A stretch of 29,761 bases of DNA from IMG/VR virus record IMGVR_UViG_2531839374_000020. One strand, written 5' to 3'. Positions 12,001 through 15,000 of the stretch are shown piece after piece (positions within the stretch are counted from its first letter, which is position 1; the number at the start of each line of letters is the position of its first letter). The DNA is from a virus. Its lineage: Duplodnaviria; Heunggongvirae; Uroviricota; Caudoviricetes. The position numbers are program-made.

Positions 12001-15000
12001 TCGCGCCCACTCTGGCGTACGAGTTCAAGAACCTGCCCTTTAATTTTTTCCCGCTCTTCTTGTGTAAAAACTTTTGCCACAAGCCCTCCTGAAAATTACC
12101 TCATGACCAGAAATTAACACTTACCCCCTGAAGCCCGGCGGAATTTCGTTATCCGGTTCAGAAATATGATTCACACAACGCTGGTTGTTCGTGCCGCTTA
12201 CCGGGAGCAACCAGGGGTTCTCAAAATTCCGGTCCGGTCCAAAAAACGTCGTCGCTCGCTGAACAAATTCCGTTCCCGTTTTCCCGGTAGCCGCCAGGTA
12301 TCTTGCGTAACGCCTCACGCCATCCAGCATGGCCTCTGGTGGCACCCCCTCGCGTAATCTGGCCTTCCAGGCACTGAAAGCGGATTTCTTCGGGTTTGCC
12401 CCGGCACGCAACGGGTACTCCCGCCAGACCTGTTCGAACACATCCGGATAATCCACTCGTCCCACAGACTGCCCGGTGTTTTCCGGGACTACCCGATCGG
12501 CTTCCCGCTGAATGGCGGAATCGGCTTCAGGCTGCTGCAGTTGGTGTGATTGCTCCGGACTTGCGGTCATCGCCTGCTGCACAGCGCCCGAATCGGCTTT
12601 CAGCGCATACGCTGAATCGGCTTCCGGTGTCGTGCCTGCTGGCTGACCAGGATTGACGGTCTGAACATCCCCTGCCTGGTTCGTGGCGTTTTTTACGCCA
12701 TGGACCATAGTGTTTTGATCTTCTTGATCTGTATCTTTATCTGTATCTTTATCTGTCGTGACTCGTCGTGACATGTGCGTGACATATCGTGACGCGCCGT
12801 GACAATCGCCATTTTGTTCCCGCTTTCTTTCCCTCTCTCGCTGCGCCCTCTTGCGCTCTGCAGGAGATTTTGCGGTTTGCGAAATATTGCCGTTGTCCTC
12901 TTTCAGCACCTGGCGTTTTTCCCATCCAGTGATTAAATCACCATCAAGTACCCGCCCCTGCATCGTCTGCAAAATTGAATCAATTACCTCTTCTGTCACG
13001 TCGAGCGCACTTGCCAAATCTTCTGTCGTGACATCAATGTGACCTCGCGTGACATTTCGTGACGCGCTCACCAGGAGGTGGATATACACTGCCATCACTG
13101 TTGCAATTGGCTGCCCTGACACCCTGGCAATTGTTCGCCACTTAGGGTCATTTGGCATGTCATGCCATAATCTGAGCCAGGCGTTAGCCATACTCACCTC
13201 TTTTGATACCGAATCTTTTTACTCACAAATTGCCGGAAGTGATCCGGTATGAATATTGCGAGTCAATGCACAGCCACAATATTTCCTGCAGGGCCACCAC
13301 GATTCATCTGGTTGAAACCAGCGATCGCCACTGCGACAAAATCATCAGCGTCTCTCACCAGTCGTTCCCGCGTCTCCACTAGTTCCCGAAAATAGGCTGA
13401 GCTATGGCTGCGCATTCGGGCCACCAGCAGAGGTGGCATTGCTTTTTCGATAGCTGGTAACAACGCCTGAATTTTTTTAAGCGCATCAGGGGTGTCTTTC
13501 TCCACCCAGCGGAAAATTTTCTGAGTATTGCGAGCCAGGGCTTCCGGATGGCTGTCGTCATACAGTTCCGGGAACGTCATTCCCAGCTCGAAATACGCTT
13601 TGGTAATTTTCGCAGCCGGTACTTTTTCGCCGTCCGGATGCGCCCAGGCATTCATCGCCATGCGGATGTGTTCATGCTTGATTTTCATGAATCAACTCCC
13701 ATCAGCTTTTTCGTAGTAGTTTTATTCCTGCCAATAGTTAAAATTGCATCGGCAGAAAATAATCCGTTTGATGGGTAATGACTCCAACTTACTGATAGTG
13801 TTTTATGTTCAGATAATGCCCGATGACCTTGTCATGCAGCTCCACCGATTTTGAGAACGACAGTGACTTCCGTCCCAGCCTTGCCAGATGTTGTCTCAGA
13901 TTCAGATTATGTCGCTCAATGCGCTGAGTGTAACGCTTGCTGATAACGTGCAGCTTTCCCTTCAGGCGTGATTCATACAGCGGCCAGCCATCCGTCATCC
14001 ATACCACGACCTCAAAGGCCGACAGCAGGCTCAGAAGACGCTCCAGTGTGGCCAGAGTGCGTTCACCGAAGACGTGCGCCACAACCGTCCTCCGTATCCT
14101 GTCATACGCGTAAAACAGCCAGCGCTGACGTGATTTAGCACCGACGTAGCCCCACTGTTCGTCCATTTCAGCGCAGACAATCACATCACTGCCCGGTTGT
14201 ATGCGCGAGGTTACCGACTGCGGCCTGAGTTTTTTAAGTGACGTAAAACCGTGTTGAGGCCAACGCCCATAATGCGTGCACTGGCGCGACATCCGACGCC
14301 ATTCATGGCCATATCAATGATTTTCTGGTGCGTACCGGGCTGAGAGGCGGTGTAAGTGAACTGTAGTTGCCATGTTTTACGGCAATGAGAGCAGAGATAG
14401 CGCTGATGTCCGGCAGTGCTTTTGCCGTTACGCACCACGCCTTCAGTAGCGGAGCAGGAAGGACATCTGATGGAAATGGAAGCCACGCAAGCACCTTAAA
14501 ATCACCATCATACACTAAATCAGTAAGTTGGCAGCATTACCCTGCAACCGCTATGAAAAAGGCGGGAAAGATGGCATCACAATGACATTTATCGGCCCTT
14601 CCCCCTCTGTTCAGGACAAATCAGCCAGCACTGATAATACCAACATCAACGGCGAAGACATGACTGAGATTGAGGAGAGCATGCTTCTACCTGTCTCCGG
14701 TCAGGAACTGCCCATTCGTTGGCTTGCTCAACACGGCAGCGAAAAACCAGTAACGCACGTTTCACGCGACGAACTCCAGGCATTACACATTGCACGGGCT
14801 GAAGAACTACCGGCTGTTACTGCCCTGGCTATTTCGCATAAAACCAGTCTGCTCGACTCGCTGGAGATTCGCGACCTCCACAAACTGGTTCGTGACACTG
14901 ACAAAGTTTTCCCTAATCCTGGTAATTCAGACCTGGGACTAATAACTGCTTTTTTCGAAGCATACTTGGACGCTGACTACACTGATCGGGGCCTGCTGAC

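What the first reader, a model, noticed from the sequence alone, without database searches (positions are those of the whole stretch)
12720..13070. Two iteron clusters at helical periodicity inside the replication-initiator gene (candidate prophage origin)
Five CGTGAC repeats spaced 10-11 bp (12757-12803) and four more (13027-13063), about 265 bp apart, both inside the coding sequence of the O-like gene, and the first preceded by a 12-bp tandem repeat. This mirrors ori-lambda, which lies within gene O, but a two-cluster arrangement is less usual and might indicate DNA looping by the initiator.
Basis: partly seen in the sequence, partly recalled or inferred. Interest (0 to 1): 0.5.

Follow-up and report, generated by a model that had tools for sequence, protein, structure and literature searches.

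The report
Two-array iteron origin inside initiator gene
A prophage replication-initiator gene carries, inside its own coding sequence, two arrays of a 6-base site plus an AT-rich stretch that together look like the phage's replication origin; the design is conserved across many bacteria but is a variation on the well-known lambda/SPP1 theme.

Summary
Five CGTGAC at 12757-12803 and three CGTGAC plus one TGTGAC at 13027-13063 lie at 10-11 bp spacing inside gene 12121-13191 (- strand). A tenth, inverted copy at 12995-13000 was missed. No random window gave a chain of 4 or more.

The repeats act at the DNA level. Copies fall in all three reading frames, and synonymous sites in the cores are frozen in 21 homologues from different genera (entropy 0.10 vs 1.50 bit).

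Across 80 divergent loci the same two-array layout recurs, but the core differs by lineage (GTCACG, CGAACGC, GCAACG, GTAACG, GTGACG) and changes in both arrays together. Two mosaic relatives with unrelated N-terminal domains carry their own iterons, again as two arrays about 260 bp apart.

The inner array is followed by a conserved A-rich tract and, in this window, a palindrome. This is the order seen at ori-lambda.

Best reading: an origin embedded in a replisome-organiser-type initiator gene, with the inner array and AT tract as the core and the outer array as an accessory binding site. Its role (looping, autoregulation or copy control) is unresolved.

It is a new variant of a known kind. 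Function is inferred, not shown. In this window the prophage is defective because IS1 replaced the immunity region.

The parts
12121..13191 (-). Initiator gene (356 aa from the ATG at 13191; the ORF extends to a GTG at 13197). It has an N-terminal predicted winged-helix domain, a disordered linker and a C-terminal DnaD/DnaT-like domain.
   Evidence: ORF list and translation. phrog_3729 'replication initiation protein', E 2e-255, and phrog_1701 DnaD-like, E 1.6e-62. NCBI name 'phage replisome organizer'. AF2 model gives H29-45, a loop at 46-55, H56-62, H67-77, a wing at 78-88, disorder at 128-244 and a helical C-domain at 250-317.
12757..12803 (-). Array B, the inner array. Five direct GTCACG cores on the coding strand at 10/11/10/10 bp, encoding linker residues about 130-146 (CHG-ASR-YVT-HMSR-RVT). 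Proposed as the origin-proximal iterons.
   Evidence: The copies lie in three reading frames. A periodic array (a chain of 3 or more of one 5-mer) was found at this position in 70 of the 81 relatives scanned, always next to the AT tract.
12708..12756 (-). A-rich (coding strand) AT tract, (GATAAA/GATACA)n, which includes the 12-bp x 2.9 tandem repeat. Proposed DNA-unwinding element. It encodes DKDTDKDTDQEDQ.
   Evidence: The 40 nt after array B are 70% AT here against 46% for the gene. Across 70 loci the mean is 66% against 42%, and 65 of 70 exceed the gene value by more than 10 points, including hosts whose gene is only 32-35% AT. Lambda has the equivalent tract after its iterons.
12677..12707 (.). 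Imperfect palindrome (13-nt arms, 5-nt loop) just beyond the AT tract. Possibly the outer boundary element of the origin, as at ori-lambda.
   Evidence: (I2). Its score of 8 exceeds the maximum of 6 in 30 shuffles. Similar short GC-rich hairpins follow the AT tract in a minority of relatives; about 12 of 70 exceed all their shuffles. It is kept in mosaic relatives L169 and L170. This evidence is weak.
13027..13063 (-). Array A, the outer array. Four direct cores (GTCACG x3 and GTCACA x1) at 10/10/11 bp on the coding strand, encoding residues 43-56 (A-SR-N-VT-R-GH-ID-VT), which form the low-confidence loop before the helix-turn-helix. Proposed accessory iteron array.
   Evidence: Synonymous codons in the cores are invariant in 21 genera-spanning homologues. 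The same core as array B was found in 46 of 54 loci. It maps to the loop at 46-55 of the model. It is absent or reduced in about 10 lineages.
12995..13000 (+). Single inverted core (GTCACG on the + strand, read as CGTGAC on the coding strand), 32 bp downstream of array A. It encodes the D-V-T turn of the predicted helix-turn-helix.
   Evidence: (I3). Val65 is GTG in 19 of 19 homologues. An inverted copy is also present in the GCAACG and GTGACG lineages and switches with the core.

Best explanation
The region is the replication origin of a Rac/Qin-like lambdoid prophage, embedded in the gene of its own initiator.

Proposed steps:

1. The initiator's N-terminal winged-helix-like domain recognises a 6-bp core (GTCACG on the coding strand). 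This is inferred from co-inheritance of N-domain type and iteron type.
2. Five head-to-tail cores at one-helical-turn spacing (array B, 12757-12803) seat a row of initiator molecules on one face of the DNA. Inferred.
3. The resulting nucleoprotein complex destabilises the adjoining 70%-AT, A-rich tract (12708-12756). That tract is bounded by a palindrome (12677-12707). Inferred by analogy with ori-lambda and SPP1 oriL.
4. The C-terminal DnaD/DnaT-like half recruits the host helicase-loading machinery. Its last 13 residues almost copy the end of host DnaT. No phage loader gene follows in this window. Inferred.
5. A second array of four cores plus one inverted core (array A, 12995-13063) lies 229 bp upstream, in the part of the gene that encodes a permissive loop of the DNA-binding domain. 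It is bound by the same protein and acts as an accessory site. Most likely it cooperates with array B through a loop or wrapped complex. It could alternatively, or additionally, act as a transcriptional roadblock or titration site that feeds back on initiator synthesis or origin firing.

What is shown: the repeats exist; they are selected as DNA rather than as protein; they co-vary between the two arrays; they travel with the N-domain; and they are flanked by a conserved AT tract.

What is not shown: binding, unwinding, looping and origin activity.
For: DNA-level selection:
- The cores occupy all three reading frames (VT, SR, CHG, GH).
- Synonymous-codon entropy in array-A cores is 0.10 bit against 1.50 bit elsewhere in 21 homologues from different genera (p = 4e-6). 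Examples: GTC, ACG, GGT and CAC in 21 of 21, while the spacer Arg49 varies freely.
- By contrast, the nearby EADSA repeats all sit in one frame.

Family-wide architecture:
- In 80 diverse genome loci the same k-mer forms two chains, at gene nt about 129-167 and about 340-440.
- The top 5-mer is identical in A and B in 46 of 54 loci.
- At least five core types exist.
- L006 (GCAACG) and L162 (GTGACG) share 59% amino-acid identity and identical spacers, yet every copy in both arrays and the inverted copy has switched.

Link to the N-domain:
- Mosaic relatives with unrelated N-domains but the same C-half (L169, L170) carry different iterons, again as two arrays 256-275 bp apart.

Origin anatomy:
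- The AT/A-rich tract after array B averages 66% AT against 42% for the gene, and is raised in 65 of 70 loci.
- The order iterons, A-rich tract, palindrome matches lambda.
- Array B sits at nt 395-441 of the gene; the lambda iterons sit at nt 349-433 of O.

Precedent:
- Origins with direct repeats and a DUE inside the replisome-organiser gene are experimentally established for SPP1 oriL (PMC5737612, PMC6316719) and for TP901-1 and Tuc2009 (PMC8965321).

Protein:
- PHROG replication-initiator and DnaD-like hits.
- Match to the DnaT tail.
- Both arrays map to low-confidence loop or linker regions of the model.
- Indels come in 21-bp (two-iteron, 7-codon) steps.

Phasing:
- The phase difference between the arrays is concentrated, R = 0.59-0.74 for helical repeats of 10.0-10.6 bp.
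Against: - There is no experimental evidence for this family. No paper describing these iterons was found.
- The N-domain has no significant Pfam hit. Profile comparison with lambda O and SPP1 G38P is not significant. The fold search gave no significant match. DNA binding by this domain is therefore inferred only.
- About 10 lineages have array B but little or no array A, so array A is not essential to the design.
- The phasing statistic is not corrected for shared ancestry. The mean phase shifts with the assumed helical repeat. In L170 the array period is 12 bp.
- The A-rich strand bias could partly follow from having to encode a soluble linker.
- In this window IS1 has removed the upstream cro/cI region, and with it the expected early promoter. 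This particular copy is therefore probably silent.
Confidence: 0.75

Rival explanations
1. The arrays are autoregulatory operators or roadblocks only. The initiator, or another phage regulator, binds inside the 5' half of the gene to throttle its own transcription, and the true origin lies elsewhere.
For: Both arrays lie within the transcribed gene. Array A is near the 5' end, and an inverted copy exists. Inverted iteron copies serve as Rep operators in iteron plasmids (established knowledge). Binding inside the ORF would inevitably meet RNA polymerase.
Against: Array B is always coupled to a conserved AT/A-rich tract and, here, to a palindrome. A roadblock does not need either. The layout reproduces ori-lambda and oriL (PMC5737612). 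No other iteron cluster exists in the 29.7-kb window. This role is compatible with the main explanation as an additional function.
Confidence: 0.1
2. The arrays are sites for a different DNA-binding protein, for example a partition or centromere-like complex (two sets of about 10-11-bp repeats, as in plasmid R1 parC) or a host factor, and are unrelated to the encoded protein.
For: Two sets of short direct repeats at one-turn spacing resemble ParR-type centromeres (recalled knowledge, not tested).
Against: The iteron type changes whenever the N-terminal domain type changes, while the C-half and neighbouring genes stay the same. No partition genes were seen among the neighbours examined. The cores differ between hosts of the same genus and are the same across different genera, which argues against a host factor.
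Confidence: 0.05
3. The repeats are a by-product of amino-acid repeats or codon bias in a low-complexity protein segment and have no function as DNA.
For: The linker is low-complexity and contains true in-frame peptide repeats (DKDT, EADSA).
Against: The cores are in three different frames and encode different peptides. Synonymous sites are frozen only within the cores. Array A lies in the folded N-domain region. Concerted core switches occur in both arrays. No chain of 4 or more occurred in 200 random windows.
Confidence: 0.02
4. Array A is a negative control element, acting by handcuffing or titration as with RK2's extra three iterons or P1 incA, or a fork barrier that makes replication unidirectional or triggers the theta-to-sigma switch. 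On this view it is not a positive cofactor of initiation.
For: Array A lacks an adjacent conserved AT tract and is dispensable in some lineages. SPP1 gp38 bound at a second site is proposed to stall forks and trigger the switch (PMC6316719). Split iteron arrays with a copy-control role are known in plasmids (recalled knowledge).
Against: A lytic or induced phage has little obvious need for copy-number limitation. The conserved orientation, the distance of about 250-265 bp in three N-domain families and the concentrated phase suggest a structural partnership with array B. Nothing here discriminates the sign of the effect.
Confidence: 0.2

Closest known systems
ori-lambda within gene O of phage lambda (and of Stx phages)
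   Same: The origin lies inside the initiator gene at the junction between the N- and C-terminal domains (array B at nt 395-441; lambda iterons at nt 349-433 of O). The order iterons, A-rich tract on the coding strand, palindrome is the same. The gene neighbourhood is cII-like, initiator, Ren-like. The iteron number varies between relatives (PMC7466680).
   Different: The protein shows no detectable homology to O. The iterons have 6-bp cores as direct repeats every 10-11 bp, not 18-bp palindromic sites every 20-24 bp. There is a second array 229 bp upstream plus an inverted copy, and lambda has none. There is no P gene.
SPP1 oriL in gene 38 (replisome organiser G38P); TP901-1 ORF13 and Tuc2009 Rep2009 origins
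   Same: These are replisome-organiser-type initiators without an AAA+ domain. Direct repeats and a DUE are embedded in the cognate gene, and the C-terminal half is DnaD-like (PMC5737612, PMC6316719, PMC8965321). SPP1 also has a second set of G38P sites.
   Different: In SPP1 the second site (oriR) is about 13 kb away in an intergenic region and has its own DUE. Here both arrays lie about 260 bp apart inside the gene and only one has the AT tract. Sequence relatedness is only remote (phrog_4880 at 2e-5; hhalign against G38P not significant). The hosts here are Proteobacteria.
Split iteron arrays of plasmid and phage-plasmid replicons (RK2 oriV 5+3 iterons; P1 incC/incA; P4 ori/crr; R6K)
   Same: One initiator has two separated arrays of the same iteron. 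One array is adjacent to the unwinding region and the other is accessory (recalled knowledge, not tested here).
   Different: Those arrays are intergenic or flank the rep gene, the iterons are 17-22 bp long, and the initiators belong to other families. Here the arrays are written into the initiator's own coding sequence and constrain its amino-acid sequence.

Membership tests
ori-lambda-type origin | Cluster of repeated initiator sites inside the initiator ORF at the inter-domain linker | tested here: met
   Array B at 12757-12803 lies in the predicted disordered linker, residues 128-244.
ori-lambda-type origin | AT-rich region immediately downstream of the iterons, followed by a palindrome | tested here: met
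   The next 40 nt are 70% AT. There is a palindrome at 12677-12707. Lambda has the same order. Support for the palindrome across the family is weak.
ori-lambda-type origin | Iterons are about 18-19-bp inverted-repeat sites | tested here: not met
   The sites are 6-bp cores, in direct orientation, with a 10-11 bp period. See the lambda iterons for comparison.
ori-lambda-type origin | Initiator homologous to lambda O | tested here: not met
   No Pfam hit to an O-type domain. hhalign of A3 against lambda O gives probability 0.1%.
ori-lambda-type origin | Initiator binds the iterons and the fragment supports replication | not testable with these tools
   Needs EMSA or footprinting and an ori-plasmid assay.
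Replisome-organiser origins (SPP1 oriL, TP901-1, Tuc2009) | Direct repeats and a DUE within the organiser's own gene | tested here: met
   Precedent in PMC5737612 and PMC8965321.
Replisome-organiser origins (SPP1 oriL, TP901-1, Tuc2009) | Sequence membership of the replisome-organiser N-domain family | tested here: inconclusive
   PHROG 'replisome organizer' profiles hit weakly (phrog_4880 at 2.4e-5, phrog_5968 at 4.4e-4). NCBI names it a phage replisome organizer. However, there is no Pfam hit and hhalign against G38P is not significant.
Replisome-organiser origins (SPP1 oriL, TP901-1, Tuc2009) | DnaD-like C-terminal domain | tested here: met
   phrog_1701 'DnaD-like helicase loader', E 1.6e-62, over residues 130-358. 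Relatives carry PF17948, DnaT-like.
Split-array iteron replicons (RK2, P1, P4, R6K) | Two separated arrays of the same iteron | tested here: met
Split-array iteron replicons (RK2, P1, P4, R6K) | The accessory array controls copy number by handcuffing, or is needed in cis through looping | not testable with these tools
   There is only indirect phase concentration.
Split-array iteron replicons (RK2, P1, P4, R6K) | Rep protein of the RepA/TrfA/pi or P4-alpha families | tested here: not met
   No such Pfam, NCBIfam or PDB match.

The most novel reading that the evidence does not exclude
The two-array layout is an obligatory design principle of a very large, undescribed class of proteobacterial prophage origins. 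The initiator bridges two in-register iteron arrays about 250-265 bp apart inside its own gene, forming a loop or wrapped complex needed for firing. Because array A is written into the loop next to the helix-turn-helix of the DNA-binding domain, the binding-site sequence and a segment of the protein that reads it are physically the same DNA and must change together when specificity switches. This would be a self-referential specificity code.
Probability: 0.2. Interest if true: 0.75.

Novelty: new variant of a known kind. Interest (0 to 1): 0.5.

Why it matters
If the reading is right, this origin type is among the commonest phage origins in E. coli. A 601-bp probe matched 2226 of 5426 complete genomes. 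It is also widespread in Gamma-, Beta- and Alphaproteobacteria. Yet no paper describing it was found in the library searched.

It offers a clean natural example of dual coding. Nine to ten protein-binding sites are superimposed on a coding sequence in three frames. Synonymous sites are frozen, indels come in 21-bp steps, and all copies change in concert when specificity changes.

Practical uses include better origin annotation in prophages, prediction of replication incompatibility or exclusion groups from the iteron core, and small orthogonal initiator/iteron pairs for plasmid engineering.

The accessory array gives a tractable system for asking why many origins use split initiator-site arrays.

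Tried and rejected
- The IMG/VR scan with the N-domain alignment returned only copies at 99% identity or more. It showed abundance but was useless for covariation. The genome-contig scan supplied the diversity.
- The Pfam scan of the initiator gave nothing significant.
- NCBIfam hit only the DnaT tail.
- PDB sequence search hit only the DnaT tail and a designed repeat protein.
- The AF2 model had low overall confidence (pLDDT 59). Foldseek against PDB gave no significant match. The 'winged helix' call therefore rests on secondary-structure order only.
- hhalign against lambda O and SPP1 G38P was not significant.
- The promoter and terminator scan of 12000-13800 gave no more than chance.
- Literature searches for these iterons or for a two-array description found nothing. 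The TP901-1 and r1t papers and the Weigel & Seitz review are not held, so prior description cannot be excluded.
- A search for protein positions outside the array-A loop that track iteron type was confounded by phylogeny and is not reported as a result.
- The amino-acid-repeat explanation is rejected.
- An upstream iteron array in lambda O was looked for and not found.
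Full report
**1. The observation**

On the + strand CGTGAC occurs at 12757, 12767, 12778, 12788 and 12798, with spacing 10/11/10/10. It also occurs at 13027, 13048 and 13058, and a one-mismatch copy (TGTGAC) lies at 13038.

The two arrays align over 39 nt at a register of 260 bp (D1). A 12-bp unit, TCTTTATCTGTA, is repeated 2.9 times at 12722-12756, directly abutting the first array.

All of this lies in ORF 12121-13197 on the - strand. The likely start is the ATG at 13191, behind a GAGGTGA Shine-Dalgarno sequence, which matches the CDS annotated in phage Tritos.

The window holds 29 CGTGAC against 14.5 +/- 3.9 in shuffles. The two chains are the only chains of 3 or more in the window. 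In 200 Markov-1 random windows no 5-mer gave a chain of 4 or more at 9-12 bp spacing.

**2. Context**

The gene product is phrog_3729, 'replication initiation protein' (E 2e-255). Its residues 130-358 match a DnaD-like profile, and its N-terminus gives weak hits to 'replisome organizer' profiles. NCBI calls the cluster 'phage replisome organizer'.

It has no significant Pfam domain. It is not detectably related to lambda O or SPP1 G38P by profile comparison.

The neighbours are a cII/YdaT-like gene upstream and a Ren-like DUF977 gene downstream. This mirrors lambda's cII-O-P-ren order but without a P gene.

Near-identical genes occur in isolated coliphages (Tritos, Evi and several vB_Eco phages), within Rac/Qin-like early regions that carry DicB, DicF and RecE. 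A 601-bp probe matched 2226 of 5426 complete E. coli genomes.

In this window an IS1 element (about 13774-14541) has replaced the cro/cI/dicB segment present in Tritos. This copy of the prophage is therefore defective.

**3. The repeats are DNA elements, not protein repeats**

On the coding strand the core GTCACG is read as Val-Thr, (Ala)-Ser-Arg, Cys-His-Gly, Gly-His or Met-Ser-Arg. All three frames are used. By contrast, the AATCGGCTT/EADSA repeats further down the linker all sit in one frame.

I compared 21 GTCAC-type homologues from different genera. Synonymous-codon entropy at residues whose third base lies in an array-A core is 0.10 bit, against 1.50 bit at other conserved residues (Mann-Whitney p = 4e-6). 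Val47 GTC, Thr48 ACG, Gly50 GGT, His51 CAC, Val54 GTC and Thr55 ACG are each 21 of 21. Val65 GTG, in the inverted copy, is 19 of 19. The spacer Arg49 uses four codons.

**4. Family-wide architecture and covariation**

Phage relatives from Aeromonas and Pseudomonas (about 70% amino-acid identity) keep the same two GTCACG arrays and the inverted copy. A Ralstonia phage (38%) has GCAACG at both places. An uncultured phage has CGAACGC at both.

Across 80 loci from one-genome-per-species contigs (36-99% identity; Gamma-, Beta- and Alphaproteobacteria and a few others), most show one k-mer forming two chains, at gene nt about 129-167 and about 340-440. The cores are GTCACG, CGAACGC, GCAACG, GTAACG, GTGACG and a few others.

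When the best periodic 5-mer is determined independently in the two regions, it is identical in 46 of 54 loci. Most of the rest are overlapping words of the same core.

L006 and L162 share 59% amino-acid identity and identical spacers. Nevertheless every copy in both arrays and the inverted copy differs, GCAACG against GTGACG.

About ten lineages keep array B but have one or no copy at the array-A position.

Copy number changes in 7-codon (21-bp, two-iteron) steps. Array A has 6 copies in E. albertii. Array B has 5 copies here against 3 in the Aeromonas phage.

**5. Link to the N-terminal domain**

Two E. coli relatives have unrelated N-terminal domains fused to the same linker and C-terminal half. 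Neither contains GTCACG arrays. Each has its own repeat, again as two arrays:

- AAGGGGCT-type, 11-bp period, at gene nt 184-220 and 440-476 (L169).
- AAGCCTT-type, 12-bp period, at gene nt 176-229 and 451-504 (L170).

Iteron type therefore travels with N-domain type. The two-array design at about 250-275 bp recurs in three N-domain families.

**6. Origin anatomy at array B**

The 40 nt after array B are 70% AT here, against 46% for the gene. Across 70 loci the mean is 66% against 42%, and 65 of 70 exceed the gene value by more than 10 points. The recurrent motif is (GATAAA/GATACA/GAGAAG)n. It persists even in genes that are only 32-35% AT, and it does not depend on iteron type.

In the window a 13-nt-arm palindrome follows at 12677-12707. 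Comparable hairpins beat all shuffles in only about 12 of 70 relatives, so this element is weakly supported.

Lambda shows the same order: four iterons, an A-rich tract on the coding strand, then a palindrome. The lambda iterons sit at nt 349-433 of O. Lambda has no upstream array.

The A-rich strand bias may partly reflect the need to encode a soluble D/K/E/T linker. That is my inference.

**7. Protein model**

AlphaFold2 gives a low-confidence model overall (pLDDT 59). The N-terminal helices and the C-domain are better supported. The order of elements is helix 29-45, loop 46-55, helix 56-62, turn, helix 67-77, beta-hairpin 78-88, disorder at 128-244, and a helical C-domain at 250-317.

Array A encodes the low-confidence loop 46-55. 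The inverted copy encodes the turn at 64-66. Array B and the AT tract encode the disordered linker. The DNA elements thus sit where the protein is most tolerant. Foldseek found nothing significant.

The last 24 residues match the C-terminus of E. coli DnaT, with the final 13 residues nearly identical. No loader gene follows in this window, whereas L169 and L170 have a DnaC/IstB-like gene there.

**8. Mechanism**

Best-supported reading: array B plus the AT tract, and perhaps the palindrome, form the core origin and work as ori-lambda and SPP1 oriL do. Those origins are experimentally established to lie in the initiator gene and to consist of initiator-bound direct repeats next to a DUE (PMC5737612, PMC6316719, PMC7466680, PMC8965321).

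Array A is an accessory array for the same protein. The relative helical phase of the two arrays is concentrated across 39 loci (R = 0.59-0.74 for helical repeats of 10.0-10.6 bp, with mean phase near 0 at 10.4 bp), even though distances range from 189 to 262 bp. This is compatible with looping or a wrapped complex. However, the test is not phylogenetically corrected, the mean phase depends on the assumed repeat, and L170 has a 12-bp period.

Autoregulatory roadblock, titration or handcuffing, and fork-barrier roles are not excluded and could coexist. Binding, melting and origin activity are all inferred.

**9. Comparison and novelty**

Functionally this is an ori-lambda/oriL-type origin. As a family member it fails two lambda criteria, O homology and palindromic 18-bp iterons. 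Its membership of the replisome-organiser family is only remote.

The short one-turn-spaced direct cores are features I did not find described in the searchable literature. The same is true of the second intragenic array written into the DNA-binding-domain coding region, and of the concerted core switches. Key older papers and the Weigel & Seitz review are not held, so prior description cannot be excluded.

Verdict: a real feature and a new variant of a known kind, of moderate interest.

Noticed in passing
window 13774-14541: A complete IS1 (InsA 14211-14486, InsB 13789-14292, both on the - strand) sits where phage Tritos has cro, cI, ydfA-C, DicF, dicB, ydfD and the 5' part of recE. Homology to Tritos stops at 13773 and resumes at 15627. 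The prophage in this window has lost its immunity region and early promoter and is probably defective.
   Followed up: partly
window 12121-12192 (residues 333-356): The initiator ends in ...SEPDNEIPPGFRG, nearly identical to the C-terminal tail of host primosomal protein DnaT (SEPDNHIPPGFRG; PDB 6aep and 9zbt; NCBIfam NF002770 positions 156-179). This suggests mimicry of DnaT to reach the host PriA/PriB or DnaB-DnaC machinery. The role of this tail in DnaT was not found in the paper read (PMC13377028).
   Followed up: partly
window 12494-12625: Four copies of (G/C)(A/G)ATCGGCTT on the + strand, all in the same reading frame, encode EADSA/KADSG/EADR peptide repeats in the linker. They behave as a protein-level or duplication repeat, unlike the iterons.
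   Followed up: partly
L169 1501-2100 and L170 1501-2100: Mosaic E. coli initiators have unrelated N-terminal domains but the same linker and C-terminal half. Each has its own iteron, present as two arrays about 260 bp apart. The recombination joint lies at the AT tract and the NT(M/L)VHGEK palindrome. Both are followed by a DnaC/IstB-like loader gene that the window lacks.
   Followed up: yes
window 12708-12756 and the equivalent position in L087-L166: The AT tract has a 6-nt periodicity (AGATAA/AGATAC/AGATCA) and carries two GATC sites (12717, 12726). From memory, GATCTGTATCTTT on the + strand resembles the E. coli oriC 13-mer (GATCTnTTnTTTT) and the AGATCT 'ATP-DnaA box'. The tract is conserved regardless of iteron type, so a host factor or intrinsic melting property may be involved.
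   Followed up: no
window 11382-11423: A perfect 18-bp tandem repeat (CCAGTTTCTCCGCCAGCG, 2.3 copies, 100% match) lies inside ORF 11338-11661 (- strand; nucleoside 2-deoxyribosyltransferase-like by PHROG).
   Followed up: no
window 1248-1379: A 61-bp tandem repeat, 2.2 copies, 77% match (TRF score 164).
   Followed up: no
L088 (E. albertii); P0022 and P0003 (E. coli): Array A is expanded to 6 copies by a 7-codon insertion (TCHGVSL/TCHGVSR). P0003 also has an enlarged array B. Iteron number is polymorphic among close relatives, in 21-bp steps.
   Followed up: partly
L150 gene nt 115-215: Array A of this locus mixes two core types (CGAACG x3, then GTGACGC x2), while its array B is GTGACGC only. 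This may be an intermediate in a specificity switch.
   Followed up: no
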